Shown here: piece by piece, positions 1 to 64,000 of the stretch
Numbering within the stretch: position 1 is the stretch's first letter
Layout: each line of letters starts with the position of its first letter
Assembly: GCA_963837005.1 (NCBI GenBank)
Contig: CAWIMC010000021.1
Span: forward strand, 14,880-78,879
Origin: Lewinellaceae bacterium
GTDB taxonomy: Bacteria > Bacteroidota > Bacteroidia > Chitinophagales > Saprospiraceae
Length of the DNA: 64,000 bases
Direction of reading: 5' to 3'
Program-made: the position numbers and the translations under genes
Notes under the pieces: model-generated
What the model was told of the DNA's origin: nothing
Seen by the model: only the letters and a program-made list of their open reading frames with translations
Database searches by the model: none

Positions 1-14
1 CCTTTCGGTAAAAC

Positions 15-761
15 CTACCGAAATAGTCCCACCACGTACTTTATCTCCAGGCGCAGCGAATTGCTCCCGAAGTGATCATCTAGTCTTAACTCTTTCGCAC
101 CGGTCTGCGTGCCGTAGGTGAAGGTCTTGTCGCCGAAGGCGCGCGCCACGTAGTTGAGGCCTACCTCGACGCGTTGCCCACCCGAGAAAGCCATCGCGTA
201 ACCGCCGGTGAGATTGAGCCCCCGCACGGTGCCCGTTGCCTCGGTGGCGTAGCTGTCGTAAGACCGACCCGAGCCCGAGAACAAGGCAACGATAAACCCG
301 ATCACCCCCTGGCCAGTGCTATAAGCTCCAGGCGCCTGCGGTCGGGCGAATTTTGAATTCACGTTGACTTTATAGCCCTGCTGTACAATGCCAATCCCGC
401 CGAATACACCGGTGTGCTCGCGGCCGCTGTAGAACTTGAGCCGCAACCCGTACATCGCGTTGCTCTGGAGCGTGCCCTCGGTAATGCCGCTCGGGAGGCG
501 CTGGCCGGCGGCGGCGTTGATGTCGCGTTTCCAGCTCCCGCCGCCGACCTCCGCCTCGAGGCTTACGTTCGGGTGTGGATTCTAGCGTACGCCCAGGTCT
601 CCGGAGAGGAAGTCGGAGCCGATACCCGCCGTAATCGTCGCCTCAACCGTTCGGCTAGGGCTCGGGGCCGGACCCTGGGCGTGGAGTGCGAGTTGCAGTA
701 GCGTGGCCGCAAAACCGACGGCGAAGCGGCGGAGGAAAGTAGAAGTCCGGAGGGTCATCAT
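15..761 (-). pseudogene. Outer-membrane beta-barrel (porin/OmpA-like) protein interrupted by an in-frame TAG at 582-584
   Basis: Track ORFs 582..896 and 15..455 are in the same frame. The signal peptide is MMTLRTSTFLRRFAVGFAATLLQLALHAQG. Alternating beta-strand-like sequence continues straight through the amber codon: ...GDLGVR*NPHPNVSLEAEVGGGSWKRDINAAAGQRLPSGITEGTLQSNAMYGLRLKF... The protein ends ...YVVGLFR. Confidence 0.5.
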
Positions 762-1176
762 GGTCGTCGTTCCTTTGGTGAAGCAAAGGTGACCGGGGGC
801 CGGGGCGGGGCCGTGGCGATGTCCGCAACTTCGGCGTGGGGGAGTTGCGGGGAGTGGGAATGGGTTACGCGCGGAAGGGACGGCTGAACCGGCCACGTGG
901 TGACGCCCGGGATGTACCTCGTGCGAGCGGAGTACGCCGACGGTTCGTTTGACGCCGAGCGTATCATCATCGAGTAGCGCTGGCGCTCAGACAGGAAGCC
1001 CGGCCCCGGATTGGTCCGGGTCGGGGCTTTTCAAGGAGGGGTGCTCCGTTCGTCTCCGCCGTTATACTCGCCGCGGCTTCAAAGGTTTTGGCGGAAGCCT
1101 CCACCGCCGTCTCGCCTACGCGAATCCCTTTTATTGCAGGTCGACCGTTTTGGCGGAAGCCCTCTCCTCGCATGTC

Positions 1177-1190
1177 GGCTTTCGCCAAAA
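1177..1190 (+). repeat. Dispersed 15-mer family GGCTTTCGCCAAAAC, exact core copy
   Basis: ggctttcgccaaaa in the intergenic region. It lies 15 bp downstream of an inverted near-copy at 1148-1161 (ttttggcggaagcc), giving potential hairpin geometry. A third near-copy is at 1086-1099. Confidence 0.8.
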
Positions 1191-1394
1191 CTTGGTCCGC
1201 GCGAATCCACGCGGCCTGTGGGAGTATGGGGGTGCTGGACGCTAGACCCGAGAACCGCTCTCGCCGGAGCCCGGAGCCAGCCTAGTCCCCCGTTCGCGGC
1301 ATGCGGCGAGCGCTCTCAAGGACACGACCTGCGCAGGCCGCGGCGCTACCGGGGCCACGGCCCGGAGCCCGGTGCTCGGTAATCTATCTCGACG

Positions 1395-2165
1395 CTATTG
1401 TCGCGTGATTGACCTCTCGCGTTGGATGTCGGCGCTTGGCATCCGCCGGGTTGCGTCCAGTACCGCCATCCAGTGCTGAACTTCCTGGGTCCTCGATCTA
1501 CTCACGGGGATGATCGCGTCGCGGAGATGGAGTCCGCGCACGCTGATCCGCGTGACCGCCCTCATATCAAAGACGTAGCTGCGGTGGGATTGGACGAAGT
1601 AGTCGGGGAGTTTGGCCTGGAGGACACCGAGGGACTCGCGGAGGTGCAGGACGCGTCCGCCGCGGAGGTGCACCTCGACGTAAACGTGGTCCGCCTTGAG
1701 GTAGGCGATGTCGTCGGCTTCGACCGCGGGATGCTCCGGACCCGCGGGCAGCCACGGCAGGGTGGCTGGCGCCCGGGTTCGACGGTGGTTGTGCAGAGCG
1801 ACCTCGATAGAGGACAGCAGGCTCTCGGTCTGGATTGGCTTGACGAGGTAGCCCAGCGGAGCGGTGGCCTTTGCGCGCGCGAGGTGGGCGGCGTCCGACT
1901 GGGACGTGAGGTAGATGAATGGGATGGGCTGCGGGAGTCCGTTTAGGTAGGCCCCGACGTCTATGCCGGACTCCGGGCTATTGATCCGGATGTCGAGCAA
2001 GGCCAGGTCGGGGTAGTGCTCGAGCGCGAGCGCGGTGGCCTCCCGGTACGAGATCGCCTGGCCGACGACGCGGTGGCCCGCCGCGAGAAGGCTACGCTCG
2101 ATCCCGTCGGCGATCAGGACTTCGTCCTCGACGATGAGAATGGTGCCCGGGGCCTGAGTGATCAA
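1395..2165 (-). CDS. LytTR-family two-component response regulator (receiver + LytTR DNA-binding domain)
   Basis: N-terminal receiver motifs (ILIVEDEVLIADGIERSL, LALLDIRINSPESGIDV). The C-terminal LytTR-like region is ...DIAYLKADHVYVEVHLRGGRVLHLRESLGVLQAKLPDYFVQSHRSYV. Overlaps the downstream kinase gene by 4 nt. Confidence 0.85.
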   Translation of the reverse strand: MITQAPGTILIVEDEVLIADGIERSLLAAGHRVVGQAISYREATALALEHYPDLALLDIRINSPESGIDVGAYLNGLPQPIPFIYLTSQSDAAHLARAKATAPLGYLVKPIQTESLLSSIEVALHNHRRTRAPATLPWLPAGPEHPAVEADDIAYLKADHVYVEVHLRGGRVLHLRESLGVLQAKLPDYFVQSHRSYVFDMRAVTRISVRGLHLRDAIIPVSRSRTQEVQHWMAVLDATRRMPSADIQRERSITRQ

Positions 2166-3967
2166 CTATAGTAGGTTTGCTCGAAGGTGATGTCGGCGTA
2201 GGCCCCGTCCGCGGAGCCGCTCGTAACACTGCCCTGCAACTGGCGTACCATGCTACGGACGAGGTAGTGCCCCAGACCCGTCTCGCGGCGGGTGAACTCG
2301 TTGGATGGGTATCCCGGCCCATTATCGCGATAATTCAACTGGAACCGATCGCCGACCGCCCTTACGGTCACCTCGGCGACCAACTGCTGGTGCGGGGTCC
2401 GCGCGTACTTCGAACTGTTGGTCAGTAGCTCCGTGACGATGATCCCGAGCGGGGTCGCGGTCGAGAGGTTGAGCGCGATTGCGTTGGCCCGCACCGAGTA
2501 GTGCAGTTCGCCGAGACCTTGGGTGAGGGTTTGGTGGTGGCCGCAGATGGCCTCGAGGTAGGCCTGCATATCGACGGCGTGCTTGTCGGTTTGTTGGTAG
2601 AGCACGTCGTGGATCGCGGCCATGCTGTAGATGCGATTGGCCATAGCCTGGAGTTTGTCGTGGACTCCGGCATCCGAGATCGTGTCTCGTTGGAGGGCGA
2701 TGAGCGAGATGACGACCTGGAGGTTGTTCTTGACACGGTGGTGAATCTCGCCCTGGAGGTCTTGCTCGCGCGCGAGGGTCGTCTGCAAGACGCGCGCCCG
2801 TTCCTCGGCGGCGAGCTTGAGGCCCCGGACGCTCCTCGTCGAGCGCCGCAGGAGTAGGTACGCCCGCAGCGTTAGGACGAGCAGTCCCGCAATTAGCGCG
2901 GCGAGTCCCCCGGCCAGCCGAAGGCGCCTGCGCGAGGCATCGAGGGCCTCCGCCTGCTCGGTGAGTTCTGCCTCACGGGCATCGGCCTCGTACCGAGCGT
3001 CAAGGGCCAGGACCTTTTCGTTGGATTCGTCCTGCAACACCTCGAGCTCGGCGGCGTGGGCGAGGACGAGGTAGTGCCATGCGGAGTCCAGCCCGCCGGT
3101 GGCGCGGTAGATCTCGGCGCGGGTTCGGTAGCTAAATGCAAACGGCCACCTCGTCTCGTGCCCGCCGGCGAACGACCTCGTTGCCGCGTAAATGGTGGAG
3201 TCGTTGTACTGCAGGGCCTGGTCGTAGCTCCCAAGTTCGACGTAGTACCCGACCGCTCCCGCGATCATAGCGCCGTAGCCGGTCCAGTCCCCGAGCCGCC
3301 GGAAAACCTTCGCTCCCGCGAGTGCGTGCTCGAGTCGGGCCGAATCGGTGCGGCCCTTGAGCAGCAAACCCATTAGCATATGTCCGACGGCCTCTTCTTC
3401 GTCCTGGCGGTAGAGCGGTGCCGTGCGCAGGACTTCATGCGTGTAGTAGATCGCGGAGTCGCGGTCGGCGAAGATGCGGTGGTAAGAGGCAATCCGGATG
3501 CACCACAGCGGATACAGCGTGTCGAGCGCCGGATACTTTGCCAGCAGCCCGCGAGTATAATCGAGGTTTCTCAGGCAGGGGGCGGGCCTGTCGATCTTCT
3601 CGTAGAGTAGTGCAAGTACAATGGCGGCGTTGGCGGCCACATCCCACACCTGCGTGGCCTCGCTCCGGCTACGGACCCGGAGCAGGGCCGCGAGGGCCGC
3701 ACTGTCGCGCTGGTCCTTCTCGAGGGCATCCGCGCGGCGGAACCGTACGCGGAGGCCGAACGGCGAGTCAAACAATGGCGTAGCCTCGAGTTCGCGCGAT
3801 AGGGCGTCGAGGACGAGGAAGGCGCTGTCGTTCTTGAAGGACACCAGTAGCCTCGCGCCCTGATGGTAGCGGGCTTCCTGGGCGGGCGTGGGACTGGACT
3901 GGGCGTAGGTACCTACGGTCGTCAACAGCACCACGGCTAAGAGACTGAGCGCCTTCGTCGGATACAC
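2162..3967 (-). CDS. Sensor histidine kinase (signal peptide, TPR-like periplasmic region, TM helix, HisKA_2-type H-box, HATPase)
   Basis: Signal peptide MYPTKALSLLAVVLLTTVGTYAQ. TM segment LAGGLAALIAGLLVLTLRAYLLL. H-box EIHHRVKNNLQVVISLIALQ followed by an ATPase domain. Forms an operon with the LytTR regulator. Confidence 0.8.
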   Translation of the reverse strand: MYPTKALSLLAVVLLTTVGTYAQSSPTPAQEARYHQGARLLVSFKNDSAFLVLDALSRELEATPLFDSPFGLRVRFRRADALEKDQRDSAALAALLRVRSRSEATQVWDVAANAAIVLALLYEKIDRPAPCLRNLDYTRGLLAKYPALDTLYPLWCIRIASYHRIFADRDSAIYYTHEVLRTAPLYRQDEEEAVGHMLMGLLLKGRTDSARLEHALAGAKVFRRLGDWTGYGAMIAGAVGYYVELGSYDQALQYNDSTIYAATRSFAGGHETRWPFAFSYRTRAEIYRATGGLDSAWHYLVLAHAAELEVLQDESNEKVLALDARYEADAREAELTEQAEALDASRRRLRLAGGLAALIAGLLVLTLRAYLLLRRSTRSVRGLKLAAEERARVLQTTLAREQDLQGEIHHRVKNNLQVVISLIALQRDTISDAGVHDKLQAMANRIYSMAAIHDVLYQQTDKHAVDMQAYLEAICGHHQTLTQGLGELHYSVRANAIALNLSTATPLGIIVTELLTNSSKYARTPHQQLVAEVTVRAVGDRFQLNYRDNGPGYPSNEFTRRETGLGHYLVRSMVRQLQGSVTSGSADGAYADITFEQTYYS

Positions 3968-4438
3968 AGGTTGTCGTCTAGGGATCGCTTGATGACGCGG
4001 GAAGGTAGGGCGGCTCGGTCGGGCGGGCCTCGCGCCGGTTGGTACTTAGGTGGCTGAGATCAGATCGACGAGCCGGACCGTCCAGGGCTACCCTAGGGAG
4101 CCGCAGTGGAGCGAATATTTAAGGCAATGTTCTGAACGGCAACGGAATTTGTCAACCTACTGATTATCAGTTTATTATCGACTCCGTTTAGAACAAACCT
4201 ATGCGTTTAACCGCCGGAAACTCGGCAGATTCAGGGTAGAAACGGTGTGGGAGGGACCTAACGAAGGCTCTGCAATTTGCTAATCGTAAAAAGCGTGCTA
4301 TGTTTGCTATACGATCTCCAGTCTGGCCTGCCTCGCATCGATCCGTCGGATGGCTTCGCCAGCGCCAGTTTCTTCTCTCCGATTGCCAGACCGTGAAAAA
4401 TAGAACTCGACTACGGCATTGTCTTTTGAAAACCTGAG

Positions 4439-6766
4439 ATGTTTACATTGCCTCTCTCAGTTAAACGACAAGTTTCAAACTACCTCATTAATTTTCTTCG
4501 CAGCATGACTACAGTAATACACCAACACCCGGCCTCTGCTAAAAGCACTATCGAATCTGCCTCGCGCAGCAAGGATGTTCGAAGCAGTCACTTGCATGGA
4601 GTCGTGGGCATCTTGCTCATCCTACTTGCTTTTGCTCCTCTCAATACCCAGGCGCAGGGCGGTCCTAATGACTATCGTGCGGTATTTGCCGTCCCAGCTA
4701 ACGGTAGGGTGATTTTTTCCGTTCAAGTCTCGGAAGAAGTTAGCTCGAAACCCTGTAGCTTTTGTGCATTTAGAGGCAATGTAGACTACGAATTTCAAGA
4801 GCGTCCGAACGGGGCAGTAACCCAAGGTTCGTTTACCAGCCTTGATCCGTTTAATTATAAAACTGTGCAAATCACTGGTTTAACGCCTGGCGGGACGGTC
4901 GCCATTGCGTTTGAAGCGGGAGATCTTGCCAGTATACAAAATGGAGGAACGAACGCATCTTCAATTATTGACGTTGAGCAGTGGGGGACAACGCGGTGGA
5001 AATCAATGTTCTACATGTTCTCGAATGCCACTTTGCTTACCGATTTCACAGCCGTTGATCTTCCGGACTTATCTTTTGGACCAAGTCTGTCCGGCATGTT
5101 TAGAAATGCTGATAACTTCAATGGTGAGATTGCCAATTGGGATGTATCTGCGGTGACGGATTTTAGTGGAACGTTTCAGGGAGCGTCTTCCTTTAATCAA
5201 CCTATAGATAGTTGGGACGTCTCTGCGGCTACTAATTTAGCCTTGATGTTCTTCGGCGCCTCCTCTTTTAACCAGCCTATAGGTAGCTGGAACGTGTCTA
5301 ACGTAACCAACATGAACTCCATGCTGCGAGCAGAAGCCTTCAATCAACCAATCGGTGATTGGGATGTATCGAGTGTGCAGGTTATGAGCGGAATGTTTGC
5401 CGGCGCCTTTGCTTTTAACCAGCCCATAGGCGCCTGGGATGTATCCTCAGTAACCACGATGCGTAATATGTTTGACGCTGCACTTACATTTGATCAGCCT
5501 ATTGGCTCTTGGAATGTTTCCGCCGTAACGAATATGGCCAATATGTTTTCAGTTACTGGTTCATTTAACCAGCCGATTGGAGCTTGGAATGTATCTTCTG
5601 TCACCAATATGGATGCAATTTTTGCTCAGACAGCCAGTTTTAACCAGCCTATTGGCGACTGGGATGTATCTTCCGTGACGAGCATGGTTTCCGCCTTCGC
5701 CTTTGCTCGAGCCTTTGATCAACCGCTCAATGATTGGAATGTGTCCTCCGTAACGGATATGAACTCGATGTTTACCTATGCGCCTGTTTTCAATCAACCC
5801 ATTAATGACTGGGATGTGTCTGCGGTGACAAACATGAACAACATGTTCCTGCTTGCCAATGCATTCAACCAGCCAGTTGGAGATTGGGACGTATCAGCTG
5901 TAACAGTTATGACCGGGATGTTTACAAGTCGGCAAGGTAGCTTCGGAAATTCCCCGCAAACCGCCTTTGATCAGGATCTCTCAGCGTGGGCACCGAGGCT
6001 CAACGCCCAGGTCTCTCTATTTGGTATGCTCGACCTCTCCGGGTTGTCTTGTGCGAACTATTCGTCGCTGCTCGTCGCATTAGCGTCCGCCGCACCAGAC
6101 GGCCGTAACTTAGGAAGAGTTGGAGGGTTAGAGTATGGGACCAATGCACAGGCGGCTCGAGACGTGCTAACAGGTACGAAAGGCTGGTCGCTCTCCGATG
6201 ACATTCCTTCAGGCACAAATTGCCAACCATCTCTACCTGCGGAATTAACTAATTTGTCCGTCTTTCGCAGTGATAGAGAGAATCATATCGCATGGGTCAC
6301 AGCTTCTGAATTGGGCACTGTGCACTTTGATGTGGAGCACAGCTCAGACGGGGTCATCTTCAAGTCTATTGGTCGGGTATTGACCATCGGCCTCGATGGT
6401 GGCGGAGCGACATACGGCTTCGACCACGCTACAGCTAGTTCTGGCACACATTATTATCGTCTACGTATCGTGGATGGGGACGGTTTTCAGGATTTGTCCG
6501 ACGTGGTTGCCGTCACTGTGAATAATGGGATCGAAGCTACTCTCGCCATATACCCCAATCCTACTGCCGCCGGTGATGTAGTACACATATTGGGTGCCAA
6601 CGTTGGGGTGCCCGTTGTTATCCTCGACGCGACAGGGCGTCTCGTGTGGCGCGGAATAACCGAGTCCAATGGCGAACTTAGTGGTCTCGAGACCCTTTCT
6701 CAGGGGTACTATCTGATGCGAGTTGAGATCGAGTCCCCAATCGTTTTGCCATTCGTTCAGAATTAG
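4439..6766 (+). CDS. BspA-family leucine-rich-repeat (DUF285-type) surface protein with T9SS C-terminal sorting domain
   Basis: About 11 tandem 25-aa repeats of consensus FNQPIGxW(D/N)VSxVTxMxxMF, the DUF285/BspA LRR type. The C-terminus ...YPNPTAAGDVVHILGANVGVPVVILDATGRLVWRG...GYYLMRVEIESPIV is a typical Por_Secre_tail. Local GC is clearly below the window average. The true start may be at 4505. Confidence 0.8.
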   Translation: MFTLPLSVKRQVSNYLINFLRSMTTVIHQHPASAKSTIESASRSKDVRSSHLHGVVGILLILLAFAPLNTQAQGGPNDYRAVFAVPANGRVIFSVQVSEEVSSKPCSFCAFRGNVDYEFQERPNGAVTQGSFTSLDPFNYKTVQITGLTPGGTVAIAFEAGDLASIQNGGTNASSIIDVEQWGTTRWKSMFYMFSNATLLTDFTAVDLPDLSFGPSLSGMFRNADNFNGEIANWDVSAVTDFSGTFQGASSFNQPIDSWDVSAATNLALMFFGASSFNQPIGSWNVSNVTNMNSMLRAEAFNQPIGDWDVSSVQVMSGMFAGAFAFNQPIGAWDVSSVTTMRNMFDAALTFDQPIGSWNVSAVTNMANMFSVTGSFNQPIGAWNVSSVTNMDAIFAQTASFNQPIGDWDVSSVTSMVSAFAFARAFDQPLNDWNVSSVTDMNSMFTYAPVFNQPINDWDVSAVTNMNNMFLLANAFNQPVGDWDVSAVTVMTGMFTSRQGSFGNSPQTAFDQDLSAWAPRLNAQVSLFGMLDLSGLSCANYSSLLVALASAAPDGRNLGRVGGLEYGTNAQAARDVLTGTKGWSLSDDIPSGTNCQPSLPAELTNLSVFRSDRENHIAWVTASELGTVHFDVEHSSDGVIFKSIGRVLTIGLDGGGATYGFDHATASSGTHYYRLRIVDGDGFQDLSDVVAVTVNNGIEATLAIYPNPTAAGDVVHILGANVGVPVVILDATGRLVWRGITESNGELSGLETLSQGYYLMRVEIESPIVLPFVQN
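5120..5940 (+). repeat. Intragenic tandem array, about 11 x 75 bp (25-aa LRR units)
   Basis: Units begin at about 5197, 5271, 5343, 5418, 5493, 5568, 5643 and 5718. Each begins TTTAACCAGCC(T/G)AT(A/T)GG... Confidence 0.8.
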
Positions 6767-6992
6767 CGCTCGGCGTGCACGAGGTTTAAGGGCCATTTTA
6801 AGTTCTTTGAGCCTCGCGACCTTCGGCCACAGGAAGTTTACTACACGACTCTCGGGTTTTCTTACAAAGTCCATCTACCCGGATGTTGCTTTTCATTCGT
6901 TACTTCTCAAAGTGTGTAGGCATCTGTTGTAACTGTTCAGTACTTCTGCGAGCTAATCTAGCCTAATGCAGTAGTGCATCCGCCCCACACCG

Positions 6993-7597
6993 CTATACAT
7001 TGAGTAAATAAATTGACCTAAATCCGGACATCACTCTTCGGATTATCGTGACCAGGTAGCGGGCGAAAGTGACGAGGTCCACGGTGAACTCCCTCATTCG
7101 GTCGGCGCCGTGCCGCAACGCGGAAGCAGCTTTGTAGACGCGTTTATCTGAACCGTGGGGCTTCATCGGTCTGGCCGTCGCGTGGGTGGCTGACCCTTCG
7201 ATCACCGACCAGATGTAGGCGAATACGACCACCGCGATCAGCAAGTGTCGGCGCTCGGGATCGCCGAGGTTGACGAATTTGAGCTCGAATCCGTTGAACT
7301 TGAGATGCTTGAAGTAGTGCTCGATCTTCCACCGCAGCAGGTACCGCTCGACGGTCGCGTAGGGGCTCTCGTCGAGGGTCGTGATCAGGAGCATCACGCG
7401 CGCCTTGGCCCTTGCCGTCGGGTGGGGGTTGCGCGCGATCACGTACCAGAGCAGCGGGCCGTCGGCGTCGAAGCGGAACGCGAAGCGCTTGGCGCGGTTG
7501 GGCTTGCCGCTCGATTCGACGCTCCGGATCGCCTCGCGCAAGCGGGGTTGACCCGGGCCGGAGGCGTCGACGAAGCTGAAGTGGGCATAGTCGCGAG
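6993..7597 (-). pseudogene. IS4-family (DDE_Tnp_1) transposase, C-terminal portion, split by the IS66 insertion
   Basis: Reads ...RDYAHFSFVDASGPGQPRL...YLLRWKIEHYFKHLKFNGFELKFVNL... The YxxRWxIExxFKxLK block is typical of IS4/IS5 DDE transposases. The reading frame continues across the 8-bp target duplication into 10050-10154. Confidence 0.75.
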
Positions 7598-7656
7598 GTA
7601 AGCGTCTAAGCAACCCCGTCTTGTGAGAGATCTTCGGTGCGCCAAGCTTCACCGGC

Positions 7657-7947
7657 ATGGCAAACCTATCCCACCTCCCCGATCTCTGGCGCCAAAGCGG
7701 CCTATCGCAGCGTGAGTTTTGCGAACGGCAAAACGTCAAACTCGCCACCTTCTCGTACTGGCGCAAGAAACAAATCGACGCCGGTGCCCCTGCGGCAACC
7801 CCAGCCGTGGCATCTCGGACAGCCGGCTTCGCCGAGCTGCACGTCGCCTCCCCCGCGCATGGTGCAACCCCGCCGTCGAACGCAGATCGCGCCATCGAGA
7901 TCACCTTCCCCGACGGCACCCGCGTGAGCATCCCGATGCCCGCCTAA
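7657..7947 (+). CDS. tnpA: IS66 accessory protein TnpA (orf1, HTH)
   Basis: 96 aa: MANLSHLPDLWRQSGLSQREFCERQNVKLATFSYWRKK... First ORF inside the IS66 inverted repeats. Confidence 0.7.
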   Translation: MANLSHLPDLWRQSGLSQREFCERQNVKLATFSYWRKKQIDAGAPAATPAVASRTAGFAELHVASPAHGATPPSNADRAIEITFPDGTRVSIPMPA

Positions 7948-8336: not shown

Positions 8337-8391
8337 CGTTTACTGATGTTTCGGCTAGGTTGAGAGGCATCGATTCCGTACCTTAGTCGCC

Positions 8392-10041: not shown

Positions 10042-10049
10042 ACGCTTAC

Positions 10050-14652: not shown

Positions 14653-14757
14653 AACTGGGGGCGAAGGTAGGGTGGGGGCGGGGGTGGCGAACCTAGGAGC
14701 TCTTAACCCGGATGCCTGGATTTTTTAACTCCTACAAACAGTTCTGTTGGGTATCTG

Positions 14758-24101: not shown

Positions 24102-26408
<2,307 letters not shown>

Positions 26409-43414: not shown

Positions 43415-43470
43415 GGGTGCCTAAGGCCTGTCGTACGACTACGCCACGAACGCGGACGTACCTTCGGGCT

Positions 43471-54613: not shown

Positions 54614-56384
54614 TTAGCCTTCAGACCTCCCCACCAGTCCAAGCCCCAACTCCGCCAGCTGCGCTTCACTCACACTATCTGGCGCATCAATCATCGTATC
54701 CCGCCCCTGGTTATTCTTCGGGAAGGCGATATAGTCCCTGATACTCGTCTTGCCCTGCATCACGGCACATAGCCTGTCAAAGCCAAAGGCAATGCCCCCG
54801 TGTGGCGGAGCCCCGTACTCGAAGGCACCCATCAGAAAGCCAAATTGCGCCTCGGCCTCCTCCTTGGTGAAGCCGAGCAAATCAAAGTTGCGCGCCTGTA
54901 GCTCCCGGTCGTGGATACGGATAGACCCACCACCTATCTCCGCGCCGTTGATGACCAAATCATACGCATCTGCCCGCAGGCCCTTTAATTCATTCCTATC
55001 TGTACTGCTCATAAGCTTTCGCTCTTCGGGCTTCGGGCTGGTGAAGGGGTGGTGCATGGCGTGGAAACGATTGCCGTCTTCGTCCCACTCGAGCAGCGGG
55101 AAGTCGACTACCCAGAGTGGCTTGAAGTCGCCGGGGGTGACGAGGTCCAGTTGACGACTCATCTCCAGGCGGAGCTCACCGAGTTGCTTGCGGACGCTGC
55201 TCCTCCTCGCCGGAGAGGATGAGCAGCAGGTCGCCGGGCTCGGCGTGTGCTGTTTTGGCGAAAGCCTCCAAGGCCGGAGTATCGTAAAATTTGTCGACAC
55301 TACTTTTTAAGCTCCCGTCAGCATTGACCTTCACATACACCAGGCCTTTAGCCCCTATCTGAGGCCGCTTCACCCACTCCGTGAGGCCGTCAAGTTGCTT
55401 TCGCGAAAACTCAGCCTGCCCCTTCACACAAATTCCCGCGACCAACTCGGCCTCGTCGAAGATTTTGAAGTCGTGCCCCTTAGCCTCGACATTGAAGTCT
55501 ACCAACTCCATCCCAAAGCGCAGGTCCGGCTTGTCCGATCCAAAGCGCCGCATGGCCTCGGCGTACTCCATGCGCGGGAAGTCCCCGAGATCGACGTCGA
55601 GTACCTGCTGAAAAAGGTGACGTGTCAGGCCCTCGAAAGTATTCAAGATGTCCTCCTGCTCCACGAAGGCCATCTCGCAGTCGATCTGCGTGAACTCCGG
55701 CTGCCTATCTGCCCGCAGGTCCTCGTCCCGAAAGCACTTCACGATCTGAAAATACTTGTCGAAGCCACTCACCATCAGCAGTTGCTTAAAGGTTTGCGGC
55801 GACTGCGGCAGCGCGTAAAATTCGCCCCGGTTCATGCGGCTCGGCACCACGAAGTCGCGCGCGCCCTCGGGGGTCGACTTAATAAGCACCGGCGTCTCCA
55901 CCTCGATAAAGCCTACGCCACTCAGATAAGCCCGCACAGCCTGCGCCAGCTTGCTCCGGAAGAGGATGGCCTCCTGCAAGGGCGAGCGTCGCAGGTCTAG
56001 GTAGCGGTACCGCATCCGAATGTCCTCCCCGCCGTCGGTCTCGGCCTCGATGGTGAAGGGCGGCGTCTTGGCGGCGTTAAGGACGTTGAGTGCTTTCGCA
56101 AAAACCTCCACGTCCCCGGTGGCCCGCTGCGTATTCTTCGCTTCGCGCTCGCGGACGTGGCCCTCGACCTGTACGACGAACTCGCGCCCGAGCGACTCAG
56201 CGGCTTCCTGGAGGCCTTCCCCAGAATCAGCGTCCACCACCACTTGCGTGATGCCATACCGGTCGCGCACGTCTAGGAAGACGAGACTTCCAAACTGGCG
56301 CTTACTCTGGACCCAGCCAGCGAGCGTGACGGGGGTCCCTACGTCGGTGATGCGGAGCTGGCCACAGGTATGGGTACGGTACAT
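54614..56384 (-). CDS. aspS: Aspartate--tRNA ligase with an apparent 1-nt frameshift near 55205-55215
   Basis: N-terminal part (track 55176..56498; [11 protein letters not shown]..., OB fold, motif 1/2 ...[18 protein letters not shown]...). C-terminal part (track 54614..55300; ...LGELRLEMS...FHAMHHPFT...GGGSIRIHD...AFGFDRL...). The two are in frames differing by +1. The junction reads ...GEEEQ(R)/[11 protein letters not shown]. The start is the ATG at 56384. Confidence 0.85.
55252..55265 (-). repeat. Dispersed 15-mer, exact copy
   Basis: ttttggcgaaagcc. In aspS it encodes AFAKT. Confidence 0.8.
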
Positions 56385-56564: not shown

Positions 56565-57809
56565 TTGCGGCCTATTTCTAGGATGCTCTCCAACTACCGT
56601 CTCTTCACGCTCACTTTTCGACAAGCGCGGCTCGACCAGCTCGAACCGTACGCTATTCAGGCAGATGAGGTCGCAAGCACCCTCGATAGCTTGAGGGCCA
56701 ATTTGCACTGGGAGGAGGTCTTTTACCTCAACACCTGCAATCGTATCCTCTTTTTCTTCTACCAAGAAAGTCGCGACCCGACCACGATTTCGGAGTTCAG
56801 AGCTGCCCTCGGCCTCAGTGACCACGACGCGGCCATCGACCCCGTATACATGGCGGGTGGTGAAGCAATCATGCACCTCTACGATGTAGCCTGCTCAGTC
56901 GACAGTATGGTGGTCGGCGAGCGGGAGATACTCCGGCAACTCCGGCTAAGCTATGTCGCCTGCCACGAGGCCGGTCACTGCGGGGACCATCTCCGCATCC
57001 TCATGCAGAGCGCGGTCGCCGTCGCCAAGCAAGTGTACCACGAGACCAAGATCGGCCAGAAGCCAGTGTCGGTCGTGAGTCTCGCCGCCCAGCGAATCCG
57101 TCAACAGCGCCTCGACGCTGCGACTAGCCGCGTACTATTAGTCGGTGCCGGACAGACCAACTGGCTCGTCTCTAAGTTTTTGCGCAAGCAGGGCTTTCAA
57201 CACGTAACGGTCTTTAACCGGACCCTCGAGCGCGGACAGCGTCTCGCCAACACGTACCCGTCTGGACGGGCGCTTCCGCTCACCGCCCTTAAGGACTACC
57301 GTGACGGTTTCGACCTCCTCGTCGTGGCCACCGGAGCCACCGAAGCGCTCATCGATGAGCCGCTGATGGCCTCCCTGCTCAACGGGGAGTCGGGTGAGGA
57401 AAAGGTAGTCGTCGATCTCTCGATCCCGCACGCCCTTGAGCAGTCCCTGATCGAGGCGGGAGCGTTGACCTACATTCAGATCGACGACCTCCGCAAACTC
57501 GCCGAGGAGAACCTCGCCTTCCGCGGTGGCGAGGTCCGATCAGCACGCAAGCTCATCGGTATGCAGTTGGGCCGCTTTCGCGAAAACGTACAACAGCGCC
57601 GCGTTGAACTCGCCTTTAGTGAGTTGCCGAGCGAGATTCGGGCTGTCAAGGACAAGGCTATCAAGGAGGTTTTCAACCGCGAAATAGAAACGCTCGACCA
57701 GCCCACGAAAGAGCTGATCGAGCGTATGATGCACTACATGGAGCGCAAGTGTATCGGCATTCCGATGCGGGCCGCACGGAGGGCGGTCCTAGAGGAGAGC
57801 GCACTTTAA
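56565..57809 (+). CDS. hemA: Glutamyl-tRNA reductase
   Basis: ...NTCNRILFFFYQESRD... (the active-site Cys motif), NADPH-binding LLVGAGQTNWLVSKFL and a C-terminal dimerisation helix. The start may be the M at 56583. Confidence 0.85.
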   Translation: MRPISRMLSNYRLFTLTFRQARLDQLEPYAIQADEVASTLDSLRANLHWEEVFYLNTCNRILFFFYQESRDPTTISEFRAALGLSDHDAAIDPVYMAGGEAIMHLYDVACSVDSMVVGEREILRQLRLSYVACHEAGHCGDHLRILMQSAVAVAKQVYHETKIGQKPVSVVSLAAQRIRQQRLDAATSRVLLVGAGQTNWLVSKFLRKQGFQHVTVFNRTLERGQRLANTYPSGRALPLTALKDYRDGFDLLVVATGATEALIDEPLMASLLNGESGEEKVVVDLSIPHALEQSLIEAGALTYIQIDDLRKLAEENLAFRGGEVRSARKLIGMQLGRFRENVQQRRVELAFSELPSEIRAVKDKAIKEVFNREIETLDQPTKELIERMMHYMERKCIGIPMRAARRAVLEESAL

Positions 57810-61456: not shown

Positions 61457-62179
61457 GTGATCACCTCGCTCGTACGCAAGCAAGTCAACGTCGTGGGCCG
61501 TGGCCTACAGGAGTTGATGTACCCACGGATCTGCAGTCATTGCGACGGGCGGATCGAGTCTAGCGTTCGCTTCGTATGCCTCGCCTGCCGCGGGGCCATC
61601 TCGACGCTCGACCTTCATACGCTCATCGAGAACGAGATGACGGATCGCTTCTGGGGGAGGCTGCCACTCACGCGGGCAGCCTCCCTCTTGCCATACGGGC
61701 AGGGCCTCCCGGCACAGCGGCTGATGTGGTCGATGAAGTATGACAATCGACCAGAGATCGGCAATAGTCTCGGGGGGTGGCTCGGGTCACTCGTTACGGA
61801 GAGCGAGGTCTTCGGAACCTTTGATGCCATTGTCCCGGTGCCACTGCACCCCTTGCGGCTCAAGTCGCGCGGCTATAACCAGGCGGCGCGGATTGCCGAG
61901 GGTATCGGCGAGGCGACCGGCGTGGAGGTTTTGGCGCAAGCCGTACTGCGTGTCAAACACACGAGTACACAGACGGCAAAGTCGAGCTTCGCAAGGGTGG
62001 AGAACATGATGGAGGTTTTTCAGCTTTCGCCAAAACACGACCTACGCGGCAAAATCATCCTGCTCGTCGACGACGTAATGACGACCGGGGCCACCCTCGA
62101 GGCTGTGGGGCGGGAAATCCTAAAAGGCGACGTCGCGGAACTGAAAGTCGCCACCTTGGCCCTAGCGAGGAAGTTTTAG
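61457..62179 (+). CDS. comF: ComF-family protein (double zinc-ribbon + phosphoribosyltransferase domain)
   Basis: GTG start. CxxC...CxxC (ICSHCDGRI...CLACRG), then PRTase ...ILLVDDVMTTGATLEA... Contains 15-mer variants at 61926 and 62023. Confidence 0.7.
   Translation: MITSLVRKQVNVVGRGLQELMYPRICSHCDGRIESSVRFVCLACRGAISTLDLHTLIENEMTDRFWGRLPLTRAASLLPYGQGLPAQRLMWSMKYDNRPEIGNSLGGWLGSLVTESEVFGTFDAIVPVPLHPLRLKSRGYNQAARIAEGIGEATGVEVLAQAVLRVKHTSTQTAKSSFARVENMMEVFQLSPKHDLRGKIILLVDDVMTTGATLEAVGREILKGDVAELKVATLALARKF
62023..62035 (+). repeat. Dispersed 15-mer, exact core copy
   Basis: gctttcgccaaaa. Encodes LSPK in comF. Confidence 0.8.
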
Positions 62180-62181
62180 GA

Positions 62182-62268
62182 GCATGGAGCATGGAGCATG
62201 GAGCATGGATTCCCCGGCTGTCGTAGCTCGAGCATCTATGCTCCATGCTCCATGCTCTATAATCCTTC
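62182..62268. terminator. Long perfect palindrome (GAGCATG)4...(CATGCTC)3 between convergent genes; bidirectional terminator candidate
   Basis: ggagcatggagcatggagcatggagcatgga...tctatgctccatgctccatgctctat. Confidence 0.5.
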
Positions 62269-62269
62269 C

Positions 62270-64000
62270 TAATGCTGTACGATGACTGCGCTCGACTCCT
62301 CGCGATCTCCTTCGCGGAGGCGTAGCACGTAGTTGCCGTTCGGGAGGTCACCGAGGTCGAGGCTGTGCTCACCGTCGGTGGTGAGGGGCCAGAGCTTGAG
62401 GGTACGACCGGTCTGGTCGACGATGGTCGCGTACACGGTGCGGGCACCTTCGCGCGGCAGCAGCGTGAGGTCGCACCTCCCCGCGGTTGGGTTCGGATAG
62501 ACGTTGCCGGAAAGGCGGTTAGGCTCGGCAGCCGACGCCCTCGAGCGTGACGGCGACTACGTCGGAGTAGGTAGGTCGTGCCGTCGAAGTCCTCGCTACG
62601 GAGTTGGTAGTAGTAGGTCTGGCCCGGCAATACGGCGCGGTCGGTGTAGGCGTAGTCGCCTGAAGCCCATGGCAGGCGTCGAGGAGATCTCTCCGTAAAA
62701 ACCTCGCCGTCGGTCGAGCGCAGGACGCTGTAGCCGGAGAGGTCGATCTCGGAGGCCGTAACCCAGTCGAGTTGGATGCTAGACGACAGGGAGCTTGCCG
62801 TGAAGGCGATCAGTTCGACAGGTAATGGAGCACTGTTAAATTCGATGGCACCTAGGTCGACGACCATATTTTAACGCGGACATTACGTTTGAAGTCACCA
62901 CCGGCAATAACAGCGTCTGCATTGTTACCCGCATCGTTGACCACTGGACTGTTGGCACTAAGCGTAGGAACTGAATCATTGTTAGCAGTTAAACATTGGA
63001 TCGGTATCGTACAGCACCCCCATGCCTTCGTTTGCCATCGATGCCCTCTGACCGTTGTCGTCGTAGGAATTTAGCAAAGCCTGGTAGCTGAACGCAGCTG
63101 TCGAAGTGTAGCTGATGTTTAATACGCCGTTCGCCAACTTAAAATCTTGGAACCCTATTGGTGGAGTGCTACCTTGGACCGAAGTGTTGTTTGGTGTCGC
63201 ATTGCCGAAGAATATGCAGTTTTTGACCGTCGACTCTCCACCGTTGGTGTACAAGCCGCCACCCGTACCCCCAGAAGCAAGAGCCAAATTGTCGGACACG
63301 GTCACGTTCGTAAGGAATAGGCGACCCCCGTTGTTGTAAATGCCACCACCAGCAAAACCCGTGTTCTTCGATATGATCGGTTTTGCAGCGTGACCAAGAA
63401 GGTGGAACTCACTGGGTCGTTCGCATTATTTCTTCCGGCCTTCATAAAAATGGCACCGCCGTAGGCGTTCCCATTCGAGCGACTTCCCGGTACCCCAGGG
63501 GCGTCCGGATCGTTGAAGTTTTCACTCAGCAGGCATCGGTCGAAGACGATATTTAACCGTCGGCGCCCGCTGCGATCAGTCGAAAGCCCACCACCGGGTG
63601 ATGCACCATTCGTACCCCTTGCTACGGTCCCGTTCTTGACAAATTTAGTGTCCTCAAACCTGGCATTCGAGATGCCATCTAAACACATTGATGAAGATAC
63701 CGCCCCCTCCGAAGGTCGACGTATTGTTTCTAAAATTGCAGAAGCTGAAGACTGGGGACGCTTCAGCGCCAAAGCCTCCATACATGTAAATCGCACCTCC
63801 CCTACCGATTGCATCATTATTGATAAACGTGCAGGAAGTGAAGGTCGGGGAGGAGACGGAGGCACTTTGATTGGCGATGTATCACGCCGGCCCTCCAGAT
63901 CCAAACCTGTCATCCGTGCCCGTGCCAGCTAGATCGGCAAATCCATCCGTGATCGTCAAGTTACGCATACCCGCTTGCGTACCTACCTGGTCAGCGAACA
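62270..64000 (-). pseudogene. T9SS substrate: right-handed beta-helix (pectate-lyase-like/choice-of-anchor) protein with fibronectin-like domain and Por_Secre_tail, broken by several frameshifts; runs off the window edge
   Basis: An intact C-terminal tail at 62270-62510 reads LSGNVYPNPTAGRCDLTLLPREGARTVYATIVDQTGRTLKLWPLTTDGEHSLDLGDLPNGNYVLRLREGDREESSAVIVQH*. The Fn-like domain at 62560-62867 is in another frame. Beta-helix rungs (NTGFAGGGIYNNGGRLFLTNVTVSDN, GGGLYTNGGESTVKNCIFFGN, GGAIFMKAGRNNANDP) are spread over at least three frames (track ORFs 62982..63305, 63302..63913). Confidence 0.65.

What the first reader, a model, noticed from the sequence alone, without database searches (positions are those of the whole stretch)
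1..64000. Hyper-abundant strand-symmetric 15-mer GGCTTYCGCCAAAAC / GTTTTGGCGRAAGCC embedded in genes and intergenic DNA (uptake-signal-like word)
By eye I find 13 exact copies of the 13-14-nt core. On the + strand reading GGCTTTCGCCAAAA they are at 1177, 18843, 32794, 46394, 50086 and 62023. Reading TTTTGGCGAAAGC(C) they are at 12666, 12693, 29626, 32978, 43308, 49288 and 55252. There are about 30 further one- or two-mismatch copies. Examples: 1 (window edge), 1086, 1148, 12766, 12884, 14346, 14643, 19748, 20046, 22326, 22470, 28267, 30709, 31224, 33252, 33952, 36192, 36818, 36977, 37887, 37973, 40709, 41278, 42778, 45133, 47657, 50413, 50578, 50803, 55395, 56093, 57578, 61926. That is about one copy per 1.4 kb. 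In roughly 65% GC DNA an exact 14-mer containing six A/T is expected far less than once in 128 kb of double-stranded sequence. Copies occur in both orientations with no obvious strand skew. Inside CDSs they fall in every reading frame: AFAKT/ASAKT, (G)FRQN, LSPK on one strand and VLAKA, FWRKP, FGES on the other. They occur in unrelated proteins (thrS, aspS, hemA, comF, hydrolases, transposon-free housekeeping genes, signal peptides) and in intergenic DNA. Selection is therefore on the DNA word, not on a peptide. This density, length and intragenic tolerance are what is seen for the Neisseria DUS and the Pasteurellaceae USS. No such signal is established for high-GC Bacteroidota/Rhodothermota as far as I know. 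Alternatives are a Chi/KOPS-like architectural word, a methylation or restriction-avoidance signature, the footprint of a tiny in-frame inserting element, or an engineered/assembly artefact.
Basis: partly seen in the sequence, partly recalled or inferred. Interest (0 to 1): 0.9.

Follow-up and report, generated by a model that had tools for sequence, protein, structure and literature searches.

The report
Genome-wide DNA mini-hairpin signal in Saprospiraceae
A clade of Saprospiraceae bacteria carries, about once per 1-2 kb in genes and between them, a conserved 15-base signal that is a tiny hairpin (GTTTT + 3-bp stem + GNAA loop) rather than a fixed word, which points to a so far undescribed signal read on single-stranded DNA, possibly marking the cell's own DNA during uptake or recombination.

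Summary
GGCTTYCGCCAAAAC occurs 44 times with up to 2 mismatches, against 0.33 expected. The unit is a hairpin, not a fixed word: GTTTT, a 3-bp stem, a G-N-A-A loop closed by C-G. Five stem sequences keep complementarity (34 of 41 loop+tail matches fully paired). 47 of 125 AAAAC pentamers follow such a hairpin; control pentamers give 0-4. The core GGCGAAAGCC equals the very stable DNA 'mini-hairpin' of the phage G4 origin.

Copies arise by point substitution, not insertion. They lie in both orientations relative to transcription and chromosome position. They are absent from an 11.5-kb stretch with IS66 and a low-GC gene. Against the closest relative, third codon positions are 89% identical inside copies and 65% outside. 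Changes there fall in the loop or are compensatory (GAC/GTC versus GGC/GCC).

The motif is present in every relative with ThrRS at least 83% identical (GC 45-66%). It has zero copies per 22 kb at 77% identity or below, and no extra copy in 1.8 Mb of unrelated DNA.

Artefact, mobile element, REP, Chi/KOPS and RNA readings are rejected. The best reading is a selected single-stranded-DNA signal, functionally nearest to DUS/USS, HIP1 or NTS/Ssn. Its function is inferred, not shown.

The parts
1..14 (+). copy cut by the window edge, (A)CC-TTTC-GGT-AAAAC
   Evidence: The same ACC/GGT stem is seen in L001. In all parts, 'strand' is the strand that reads stem-TTNC-stem-AAAAC; the proposed folding strand GTTTT-stem-GNAA-stem is the opposite one.
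1085..1099 (-). GGC-TTCC-GCC-AAAAC, intergenic
1147..1161 (-). GGC-TTCC-GCC-AAAAC, intergenic; inverted pair with 1177
1177..1191 (+). GGC-TTTC-GCC-AAAAC, intergenic
1192..12664 (.). motif-free stretch: LytTR regulator and kinase genes, low-GC DUF285 gene, IS66 transposase and an IS66 fragment
   Evidence: P of a gap this long = 0.003
12665..12679 (-). GGC-TTTC-GCC-AAAAC, thrS C-terminal extension (AFAKT)
12692..12706 (-). GGC-TTTC-GCC-AAAAC, thrS (AFAKT); 15/15 identical in L001 and L003
12758..12772 (-). GGC-TGCC-GCC-AAAAC, thrS (AAAKT); 15/15 identical in L001
12877..12891 (+). GGC-CTTC-GCC-AAAAC, thrS (VLAKA); L001 has TTTC at this site
14350..14364 (+). GGC-TTCC-GCC-AAAAC, thrS
14641..14655 (+). 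GCC-TTTC-GGC-AAAAC, upstream of the thrS start; L001 keeps it with loop TTGC
17326..17340 (-). GGC-TTGC-GCC-AAAAC
18843..18857 (+). GGC-TTTC-GCC-AAAAC
19748..19762 (+). GGC-TTCC-GCC-AAAAC, PIG-L gene; 15/15 identical in L001
20044..20056 (-). 2-bp-stem variant GC-TTCC-GC-AAAAC (GTTTT-GCGGAAGC)
22327..22339 (+). 2-bp-stem variant GC-TTTC-GC-AAAAC
22472..22486 (-). GGC-TTCC-GCC-AAAAC, kinase gene; 15/15 identical in L001
24070..24084 (-). GAC-TTTC-GTC-AAAAC, intergenic; the orthologous L001 site is GGC...GCC (compensatory change)
25823..25837 (+). GCC-CTCC-GGC-AAAAC, atypical loop, doubtful copy
28256..28270 (+). GGC-TTGC-GCC-AAAAC, intergenic
29625..29639 (-). GGC-TTTC-GCC-AAAAC, intergenic
30708..30722 (+). 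GGC-TTTC-GCT-AAAAC (G.T at the outer pair)
31058..31072 (+). GAC-TTCC-GTC-AAAAC
31219..31233 (-). GGC-GTTC-GCC-AAAAC
32793..32807 (+). GGC-TTTC-GCC-AAAAC, in a gap that is probably non-coding
32915..32929 (-). GAC-TTAC-GTC-AAAAC
32977..32991 (-). AGC-TTTC-GCC-AAAAC (G.T wobble on the GTTTT strand)
33253..33265 (+). 2-bp-stem variant GC-TTTC-GC-AAAAC
35920..35934 (-). GCC-TTCC-GGC-AAAAC
36184..36198 (+). GGC-TTCC-GCC-AAAAC
36814..36828 (+). GGC-TGTC-GCC-AAAAC
36982..36996 (+). GGC-ATGC-GCC-AAAAC, atypical loop
37886..37900 (+). GCC-TTTC-GGC-AAAAC, intergenic
37969..37983 (-). GGC-TGTC-GCC-AAAAC, in a signal-peptide region
40709..40723 (-). GCC-TTTC-GGC-AAAAC
41272..41286 (+). GGC-TTAC-GCC-AAAAC
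42267..42281 (-). GCC-CTCC-GGC-AAAAC, atypical loop, doubtful copy
42772..42786 (+). GGC-TTCC-GCC-AAAAC
43307..43321 (-). GGC-TTTC-GCC-AAAAC
45132..45146 (-). GGC-TGTC-GCC-AAAAC
46395..46409 (+). GGC-TTTC-GCC-AAAAC
46963..46977 (-). TGC-TTTC-GCA-AAAAC
47653..47667 (+). GGA-TTTC-GCC-AAAAC, degenerate copy (closing pair broken)
49287..49301 (-). AGC-TTTC-GCC-AAAAC (G.T wobble on the GTTTT strand)
50082..50096 (+). GGC-TTTC-GCC-AAAAC
50403..50417 (+). GCC-TTGC-GGC-AAAAC
50803..50817 (-). GGC-TTAC-GCC-AAAAC, intergenic
55252..55266 (-). GGC-TTTC-GCC-AAAAC, aspS (AFAKT)
55396..55410 (+). TGC-TTTC-GCG-AAAAC (T.G at the outer pair)
56091..56105 (+). TGC-TTTC-GCA-AAAAC, aspS
57176..57190 (-). TGC-TTGC-GCA-AAAAC, hemA
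57573..57587 (+). CGC-TTTC-GCG-AAAAC, hemA
61928..61942 (-). GGC-TTGC-GCC-AAAAC, ComF-like gene
62022..62036 (+). AGC-TTTC-GCC-AAAAC, ComF-like gene

Best explanation
Shown. The repeated unit is a 15-nt structure-defined DNA signal, 5'-GTTTT-[n n C-G N A A-G n' n']-3'. It consists of a sequence-specific 5-nt tail and a 3-bp stem capped by a c(GNAA)g tetraloop, the class of unusually stable DNA 'mini-hairpins' d(GCGNNAGC). It is specific to one clade of Saprospiraceae. It is built into native genes and spacers by point substitutions. It is kept by selection on the DNA itself, and it is missing from recently acquired DNA.

Inferred. The stem covaries, G.T wobbles are tolerated mainly on the GTTTT strand, and the tail seems to be kept unpaired. 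I therefore infer that the signal is read as a folded single strand by a protein that recognises both the tail sequence and the hairpin. Copies are kept in both orientations relative to transcription and to chromosome position. The process should therefore be one that exposes either strand. The most likely one is handling of incoming or recombining DNA of the same species. In that role the signal would act as a 'self' tag or recombination and uptake signal, as DUS/USS, HIP1 or NTS/Ssn do. A hairpin that repels SSB and resists exonucleases would mark or protect fragments. Alleles carrying it would spread by biased uptake or recombination, with selection also acting.

My estimates. A real, selected, structure-defined DNA-level signal: about 0.9. 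Read on single-stranded DNA: about 0.65. A role in uptake or recombination of the species' own DNA: about 0.35.
For: Over-representation. There are 44 copies against 0.33 expected. 47 of 125 AAAAC pentamers follow a 3-bp/4-nt hairpin, against 0-4 for ten control pentamers and 2.6 under a 5th-order Markov model. No copy beyond the seeded one is found in 0.65 Mb of non-Saprospiraceae genome loci or in 1.12 Mb of viral loci.

Hairpin. 34 of 41 NNN-TTNC-NNN-AAAAC sites are fully complementary, with five different stems. Across six genomes the middle pair is Watson-Crick at every site that matches the loop and tail. At one orthologous site the stem is GAC/GTC in the window and GGC/GCC in L001.

Folding strand. 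Single-sided changes at the outer pair are G.T-compatible on the GTTTT strand 22 times and on the other strand 5 times. On that strand the loop always starts with G and is closed by C-G. GC..GC and CC..GG stems and GBAA loops are exactly the variants reported to keep mini-hairpin stability. GGCGAAAGCC lies within the G4 origin hairpin CGGCGAAAGCCG, which binds SSB poorly and resists exonuclease (PMC13037366). 2-bp variants GTTTT-GCGNAAGC also occur, 3 against 0.02 expected.

Tail. 22 of 23 GGCTTNCGCC are followed by AAAAC. T is depleted just before the stem, 6 of 117 sites, so the tail cannot pair with it.

Origin by substitution. ThrRS aligns without gaps at VLAKA, AAAKT and AFAKT.

Selection. 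Identity to L001 is 95% inside copies and 79% outside. At third codon positions it is 89% versus 65%, P=0.0014. 8 of 9 alignable copies are retained in L001.

Orientation neutrality. The window has 21 copies on + and 22 on -. Relative to transcription, the GTTTT form is sense 23 times and antisense 12-13 times in the window. Pooled with L001 the ratio is 28:20-21, which is not significant. Orientations are mixed at all 8 sampled chromosome positions of OZ244050.1.

Island. An 11.5-kb gap without copies holds IS66 and a low-GC gene, P=0.003.

Clade specificity. The motif is present in all relatives with ThrRS at least 83% identical, at GC 45-66%. It has zero copies at 77% identity or below.

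Precedents. NTS hairpins are read on ssDNA by SsnA and modulate transformation (PMC11893778). HIP1 is conserved in the same way and is now linked to transformation (PMC5861425; bioRxiv 10.64898/2026.06.24.733823).
Against: There is no experimental evidence of competence, uptake bias or any reader protein in this lineage, and no paper links Saprospiraceae to competence.

The window holds only a generic ComF-type phosphoribosyltransferase. It has no pilin, ComEA, ComEC, GIY-YIG or HUH gene.

DUS and USS are read as double-stranded DNA, so the analogy is functional only.

Nearest-neighbour energies for a 3-bp stem are small: -2.3 kcal/mol as DNA. The claim of stability rests on published mini-hairpin measurements, not on a test made here.

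Copies are clustered rather than evenly spaced, with 12 gaps under 200 bp against 6.5 expected. That is not what is reported for USS.

Only about 250 kb of the clade's DNA was examined, and part of it was chosen because it contains the motif.
Confidence: 0.4

Rival explanations
1. Chromosome replication or repair signal on single-stranded DNA. The mini-hairpin keeps SSB off and serves as a landmark for primase, replication restart or RecA loading in the cell's own replication or gap repair. It would work like the phage G4 origin and ssi signals, and would have nothing to do with DNA uptake.
For: The core equals the G4 origin mini-hairpin. Such hairpins bind SSB poorly and sit at priming sites (PMC13037366). 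The spacing of about 1-2 kb matches the length of bacterial Okazaki fragments (own knowledge). A GTTTT template next to the hairpin would give a primer starting with A.
Against: Lagging-strand priming predicts one orientation per replichore. Both orientations are equally frequent in the window and are mixed at 8 chromosome positions of a relative. Copies of both orientations are conserved between genomes. A housekeeping need does not explain the sharp clade restriction or the absence from acquired DNA.
Confidence: 0.15
2. HIP1-like duplex signal or by-product. The word is recognised as double-stranded DNA by a methyltransferase, a repair system or a nucleoid protein. Its abundance comes from biased repair or from a role in chromosome structure.
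For: The hyper-abundance, conservation at orthologous sites and presence inside genes all match what is reported for HIP1 (PMC5861425; PMC4390886).
Against: Duplex recognition does not predict compensatory stem changes or strand-asymmetric G.T tolerance. The motif is not a full palindrome, because it has an asymmetric tail. No methyltransferase is encoded in the window. Biased repair without selection is hard to reconcile with loop-N freedom together with strict conservation elsewhere.
Confidence: 0.12
3. Neutral mutational product. Local template switching or another mutational bias creates and perfects small hairpins, and the motif has no function.
For: Quasi-palindrome correction can produce apparent compensatory changes (own knowledge). 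Copies arise by substitution.
Against: This would not fix a specific 5-nt tail (22 of 23), a specific loop class and a specific closing pair. Third-position conservation of 89% versus 65% indicates constraint. A 3-bp stem is too short for known template-switch events (own knowledge).
Confidence: 0.07
4. RNA element. A GNRA-tetraloop hairpin acts in transcripts, for example in stability, processing or protein binding.
For: c(GNRA)g is a classic stable RNA tetraloop. G.U tolerance lies on the GUUUU strand. In the window the GTTTT form is the sense strand 23 times and the antisense strand 12-13 times.
Against: The ratio is not significant and falls to 28:20-21 when pooled with L001. Antisense copies are conserved as well as sense copies. 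There is no Rfam match. Intergenic copies sit between convergent as well as tandem genes.
Confidence: 0.05
5. Miniature mobile or REP-like element that inserts 15 nt (5 codons) in frame, or an assembly or adapter artefact.
For: 15 nt equals 5 codons. The thrS tail has two copies 27 nt apart within a lineage-specific extension.
Against: Internal ThrRS copies align without gaps to relatives that lack the motif. There are no conserved flanks or target duplications. A genuine REP/RAYT cluster in relative L243 looks entirely different. The motif is found at orthologous sites in genomes from different projects and assemblers.
Confidence: 0.02

Closest known systems
DNA uptake sequences (Neisseriaceae DUS, Pasteurellaceae USS)
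   Same: Lineage-specific. About one copy per 1-2 kb. Both orientations. Tolerated in coding DNA in preferred frames and in weakly constrained protein segments. Generated by substitution. Lacking in recently acquired DNA. Related lineages have 'dialects': here GGC..GCC in high-GC members and GGC..GCT in low-GC members.
   Different: DUS and USS are fixed words read on duplex DNA by a pilus-associated receptor. This motif is defined by pairing, with five or more stem sequences and a free loop N. It shows strand-asymmetric wobble. It occurs in a phylum with no known uptake sequence. No competence data exist. Copies are clustered, not evenly spaced.
HIP1 (GCGATCGC) of cyanobacteria
   Same: Hyper-abundant inside genes. 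Conserved at orthologous positions beyond the background level. Function long unknown and now tied to transformation.
   Different: HIP1 is a perfect 8-bp palindrome with cognate methyltransferases. This motif has an asymmetric 5-nt tail and a covarying stem, and no methyltransferase link was found.
NTS/SRM hairpin repeats read by Ssn GIY-YIG single-strand nucleases (PMC11893778)
   Same: An abundant hairpin-forming genomic repeat. Recognised by both sequence and structure on single-stranded DNA. Acts on incoming transforming DNA. The NTS tip GCG-MAV-GC is itself mini-hairpin-like.
   Different: NTS is about 28 nt with a 6-bp or longer stem. It is intergenic, has hundreds of copies, and flanks the ssnA gene. 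The published SRM pattern has 0 hits here. No GIY-YIG gene is in the window. The present motif is half that length and mostly inside genes.
DNA mini-hairpins d(GCGNNAGC) at single-strand origins (phage G4, St-1, alpha3; ssiA; N4 promoters)
   Same: Identical core, GGCGAAAGCC. The same rules for which stems and loops are allowed. Function on single-stranded DNA with exclusion of SSB.
   Different: Those are single sites on phage or plasmid single strands that direct priming or transcription. This motif is dispersed chromosome-wide at roughly 1 per 1.3-1.9 kb without strand bias.
REP elements with RAYT (Y1) transposases
   Same: A conserved short 5' sequence followed by a covarying hairpin that is read on single-stranded DNA.
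   Different: REPs are 20-40 nt, strictly extragenic, clustered, carry GTAG and lie near a RAYT gene. The real example in L243 shows all of these features. The present motif is 15 nt, 73% of copies are inside genes, and copies are dispersed.
Chi, KOPS and other strand-skewed architectural words
   Same: Over-represented short chromosomal signals tolerated in genes.
   Different: Those are 5-8 nt words, unstructured, and strongly skewed with replication direction. No skew is seen here.

Membership tests
DUS/USS uptake sequences | Lineage-specific word, hundreds- to thousands-fold over-represented, about one per 1-2 kb, both orientations | tested here: met
DUS/USS uptake sequences | Embedded in coding DNA by substitution, biased reading frames, depleted in recently acquired DNA | tested here: met
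   (one island only)
DUS/USS uptake sequences | A fixed sequence read on duplex DNA, so no compensatory covariation | tested here: not met
   Stem covariation and strand-asymmetric wobble
DUS/USS uptake sequences | Sequence-biased DNA uptake by a competent cell through a dedicated receptor | not testable with these tools
   Needs uptake or transformation assays. No isolate or competence report was found.
DUS/USS uptake sequences | Competence machinery (type IV pilus, ComEA, ComEC, DprA) encoded in the genome | not tested
   Only a ComF-type phosphoribosyltransferase in the 64 kb. The whole genome was not available.
HIP1-type iterated palindromes | Perfect palindrome with cognate orphan methyltransferases | tested here: not met
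   The motif has an asymmetric tail and variable stems. No methyltransferase domain in the window.
HIP1-type iterated palindromes | Copies conserved between genomes beyond the background level, including synonymous sites | tested here: met
HIP1-type iterated palindromes | 10-90 kb periodicity along the chromosome | not testable with these tools
   The window is too short
NTS/SRM-Ssn system | Match to the SRM degenerate pattern (about 28-nt hairpin with GTC...) | tested here: not met
   0 hits
NTS/SRM-Ssn system | Ssn (GIY-YIG) gene in the genome, usually flanked by the repeats | tested here: inconclusive
   None in the window ORFs. The rest of the genome was not examined.
REP/RAYT | Extragenic, clustered, 20-40 nt palindromes with a 5' GTAG, and a RAYT gene nearby | tested here: not met
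   35 of 48 copies lie in genes. The unit is 15 nt with no GTAG. The contrast is the real REP cluster in L243.
DNA mini-hairpin d(GCGNNAGC)/d(cGNNAg) | Sequence rules: C-G closing pair, loop G...A, GC..GC or CC..GG inner stem | tested here: met
   against PMC13037366. The GAC/GTC stems were not among the published variants I read.
DNA mini-hairpin d(GCGNNAGC)/d(cGNNAg) | Actually folds in vivo or in vitro with unusual stability | not testable with these tools
   The nearest-neighbour model gives only -2.3 kcal/mol and has no mini-hairpin term
Chi/KOPS/architectural skewed words | Orientation skewed with the direction of replication | tested here: not met
Intrinsic terminators | GC-rich hairpin followed by a T run on the transcribed strand, at gene ends | tested here: not met
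   The T run precedes the hairpin. Most copies are intragenic.
Known RNA families (Rfam) | Match to a curated covariance model | tested here: not met
   0 matches

The most novel reading that the evidence does not exclude
This is the first uptake or recombination 'self' signal in Bacteroidota, and the first of the DUS/USS/HIP1 class whose specificity lies in a folded single strand: a cGNAAg mini-hairpin plus a GTTTT tail. It would be read by a still unknown protein specific for single-stranded-DNA hairpins, during import or recombination of DNA from the same species.
Probability: 0.3. Interest if true: 0.9.

Novelty: new variant of a known kind. Interest (0 to 1): 0.8.

Why it matters
Hyper-abundant genomic words (DUS, USS, HIP1, Chi) are among the few cases where a whole genome is shaped by one DNA-handling machine. 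All known examples are fixed sequences.

This one is defined by base pairing. It sits mostly inside protein-coding genes and is maintained by selection across genomes that range from 45 to 66% GC. That means a single-stranded-DNA structure is being read genome-wide, and that thousands of codons are constrained by it.

The finding gives a concrete, testable handle on DNA exchange or single-strand DNA metabolism in Saprospiraceae. This group is abundant in activated sludge and aquatic systems, has few cultured members, and has no known uptake signal. The test would use oligonucleotides carrying intact, broken and compensatory stems.

The finding also supplies a natural, large-scale case for the biology of DNA mini-hairpins, which so far are known only from a few phage and plasmid origins. 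In practice, the motif is a sharp marker for native versus acquired DNA and for binning in this clade.

Tried and rejected
Searches that found nothing. Rfam and tRNA/tmRNA gave no matches. A full-text search for the word in either orientation found no paper. No paper links Saprospiraceae and competence.

Look-ups that failed. The window's own proteins are not on record in the assembly index, so the source contig itself was not retrieved.

That neither supports nor refutes a phage link.

Uninformative computation. Nearest-neighbour folding energies are small and the same for both strands. They cannot address mini-hairpin stability.

Hypotheses tested and rejected:
- Even, USS-like spacing: copies are clustered.
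- In-frame 15-nt insertion.
- Replication-strand skew.
- Transcription-strand bias: not significant.
- SRM/Ssn membership.
- REP/RAYT.
- A link between the aspS frameshift and the motif: the shift is 35-45 nt away.

Considered from memory and dropped:
- APOBEC-type deamination hotspots. Loops ending in TC fit only the TTTC variant, and conservation argues against it.
- Bacteroidota promoter elements (TTTG). This explains neither the covariation nor the intragenic copies.
- Recognition by a dimeric protein. This does not predict covariation.

Full report

Yes. The exact 14-mer GGCTTTCGCCAAAA occurs 10 times, against 0.00 expected from dinucleotide shuffles. GGCTTYCGCCAAAAC with up to 2 mismatches occurs 44 times, against 0.33 expected and a maximum of 2 in shuffles.

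Most listed coordinates are right or off by a few bases. Position 1 is a copy cut by the window edge. Positions 20046, 22326 and 33252 are a shorter variant. Position 50578 is not convincing. GC content is 61%. Flanks carry no information, so the unit really is about 15 nt.

2. WHAT IS IT? A HAIRPIN, NOT A WORD

The 2-mismatch variants are almost all compensatory. Of 41 matches to NNN-TTNC-NNN-AAAAC, 34 have three Watson-Crick pairs. The stems are GGC/GCC (22), GCC/GGC (5), GAC/GTC (3), TGC/GCA (3) and CGC/GCG (1).

Read on the other strand, the motif is GTTTT-nnC-GNAA-Gnn. The loops are GAAA (17), GGAA (9), GCAA (5) and GTAA (3).

The tail is as tightly fixed as the hairpin. 22 of 23 GGCTTNCGCC are followed by AAAAC. 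47 of the 125 AAAAC pentamers in the window (both strands) are preceded by a 3-bp/4-nt hairpin. Ten control pentamers give 0-4, and a 5th-order Markov model gives 2.6.

Pooling 117 strict copies from six related genomes gives three further results:
- The middle pair is Watson-Crick at every site that matches the loop and tail.
- Single-sided changes at the outer pair are G.T-compatible on the GTTTT strand 22 times, on the other strand 5 times, and mismatched 7 times.
- The base that could extend the stem by pairing with the tail is depleted (T at 6 of 117 sites).

The GTTTT...GNAA strand therefore looks like the one that folds, with the tail left single-stranded.

Three copies have only a 2-bp stem, GTTTT-GCGNAAGC, against 0.02 expected.

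This anatomy matches the DNA 'mini-hairpin' d(GCGNNAGC) (PMC13037366):
- GCGAAAGC melts at 76.5 C.
- GBAA loops melt at 71-72 C.
- CC..GG stems are accepted; CG..CG and GG..CC stems are not.
- The structure resists exonucleases.
- A fragment carrying CGGCGAAAGCCG, the phage G4 origin hairpin that contains our 10-nt core, binds SSB poorly.

The standard nearest-neighbour model gives only -2.3 kcal/mol and cannot capture this.

3. HOW DO COPIES ARISE, AND ARE THEY MAINTAINED?

The organism is a Saprospiraceae member of the Bacteroidota.

In ThrRS, the internal copies encode VLAKA, AAAKT and AFAKT. They align without gaps to ELAKH, AEAKT and EFAxx in relatives that lack the motif. Copies are therefore made by substitution, not by a 5-codon insertion. 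Only the last copy lies in a lineage-specific C-terminal extension.

The closest relative (L001, which is OZ244050.1) has 74-82% DNA identity. Against it, 8 of 9 alignable window copies are still motifs:
- Five are 15/15 identical.
- Two differ only in the loop: one at the free N position (TTTC versus TTGC) and one at another loop position (CTTC versus TTTC).
- One is GAC/GTC in the window and GGC/GCC in L001, a compensatory double change at the same site.

Identity inside copies is 95%, against 79% outside (P=6e-6). At third codon positions it is 89% against 65% (P=0.0014). The constraint is therefore on the DNA.

4. DISTRIBUTION

Orientation.
- The window has 21 copies on + and 22 on -.
- Relative to transcription, the GTTTT form is the sense strand in 23 genic copies. 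It is the antisense strand in 12-13, depending on the gene calls.
- From the L001 gene table and motif positions I count 5 and 8. The pooled ratio is 28:20-21, which is not significant.
- Orientations are mixed at all eight sampled positions of the 5.25-Mb chromosome OZ244050.1.

Position relative to genes.
- Frames are biased. VLAKA accounts for 15 of 23 copies and xAFAKT for 9 of 13.
- 13 of 48 copies are intergenic. At most this is a mild enrichment. Positions within genes are roughly uniform.

Spacing.
- Copies are clustered, with 12 gaps under 200 bp against 6.5 expected.
- There is one 11.5-kb gap (P=0.003). It holds an IS66 transposase, an IS66 fragment and a low-GC DUF285 gene.

Phylogeny.
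- The motif is present in every relative with ThrRS at least 83% identical, whatever the GC content (0.45-0.66), at one copy per 1.3-3.1 kb.
- It has zero copies in 22 kb at 77% identity or below, including Neolewinella xylanilytica.
- Low-GC members mostly use GTTTT-GGC-GNAA-GCT.

Background.
- In the species-representative genome scan, every locus with more than one copy is a Saprospiraceae MAG.
- In 0.65 Mb of other genomes and 1.12 Mb of viral contigs, there is no copy beyond the seeded one.
- The carrier genomes come from different projects and assemblers, so this is not an artefact.

5. MECHANISM

Shown: this is a clade-specific, selected, structure-defined DNA signal that is generated by substitution and independent of orientation.

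Inferred: it is read on single-stranded DNA by a protein that recognises the GTTTT tail and the hairpin. The process exposes either strand. The most plausible candidate is the handling of incoming or recombining DNA of the same species.

Two precedents make this reasonable:
- In Neisseria, NTS hairpin repeats are cut on ssDNA by the GIY-YIG nuclease SsnA, and this modulates transformation (PMC11893778).
- HIP1 is conserved in the same way (PMC5861425) and is now linked to transformation.

I put about 0.9 on 'real selected structural signal', about 0.65 on 'single-stranded DNA', and about 0.35 on 'uptake or recombination self-tag'.

The main rival is a replication or repair landmark like the G4 origin. 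It fits the chemistry but not the lack of strand bias.

Other readings fit worse:
- Duplex or methylation models do not explain the covariation.
- RNA models do not explain the orientation neutrality.
- Mobile-element models fail on the absence of indels and flanks. A genuine REP/RAYT cluster in relative L243 looks quite different.
- The published SRM pattern has no hit.
- No GIY-YIG, Y1 or methyltransferase domain is encoded in the window.

6. NOVELTY AND VERDICT

No paper contains the word, and I found no report of competence or uptake signals in Saprospiraceae.

The phenomenon belongs to the general kind 'hyper-abundant genomic signal words'. It differs from every described member in three ways. 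It is defined by pairing. It carries an asymmetric single-stranded tail. It coincides with the DNA mini-hairpin class. I rate it a new variant of a known kind.

The function is unproven. The evidence covers about 250 kb of the clade's DNA, part of it selected for containing the motif.

Noticed in passing
window 54614-56498 (minus strand): aspS is split into two overlapping ORFs (55176-56498 and 54614-55300). The frame change lies about 35-45 nt downstream of motif copy 55252-55266, within GGCGAGGAGGAGCAGCG. It is either an assembly error or a pseudogene.
   Followed up: partly
window 4439-10937: A low-GC (about 0.53) DUF285 repeat-protein gene (4439-6766), an intact IS66-family transposase (8392-10041) and an IS66 fragment (10344-10937). 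Together they look like recently acquired DNA and carry no motif copies.
   Followed up: partly
window 12652-12710: The thrS C-terminus reads [18 protein letters not shown]. It has two motif copies 27 nt apart. The second lies in a tail that relatives lack or have in a different form, so protein tails seem to be extended or remodelled around copies.
   Followed up: partly
window 1085-1191: Three intergenic copies lie within 107 nt. The pair 1147(-)/1177(+) forms a 15-nt-arm inverted repeat with a 15-nt spacer, reminiscent of paired DUS at gene ends. Whether it terminates transcription was not tested.
   Followed up: no
window 32521-33717: A gap of about 1.2 kb with weak coding signal holds four copies (32793, 32915, 32977, and the 2-bp variant at 33253).
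   Followed up: no
window 11438-12640 and 43417-44703: Two paralogous SLFN_AlbA_2 + HATPase_c_4 genes. One sits directly downstream of thrS, an arrangement conserved in L001 and L239.
   Followed up: no
L243 16700-18360: A classical REP-like cluster of 13 or more copies of ...AGCCGCGTTAGCGCGCGTCGCCCCCGGTAGGCCAG... surrounds a Y1 transposase (RAYT-like) gene at 16929-17393. The repeat contains GCGTTAGC, another published mini-hairpin word.
   Followed up: partly
L002 12500-12830 and 16250-16590: Duplicated intergenic repeat blocks include AGCGAAGCT, AGCGAAGCCAAAAC and GGCGAAGCC, which are GCGAAGC triloop mini-hairpins, one of them followed by AAAAC. They may be a related signal with a 3-nt loop.
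   Followed up: no
L002, L239, L042/L105: Low-GC members of the clade (GC 0.45-0.53) mostly carry the form AGC-TTNC-GCC-AAAAC, which is GTTTT-GGC-GNAA-GCT on the other strand. This is a 'dialect' with a G.T wobble at the stem base.
   Followed up: partly
window 52663-53652: A gene combining a DnaQ-like 3'-5' exonuclease domain (RNase_T) with a BRCT domain. It is a DNA-end-processing protein of unknown role and has no evident link to the motif.
   Followed up: no
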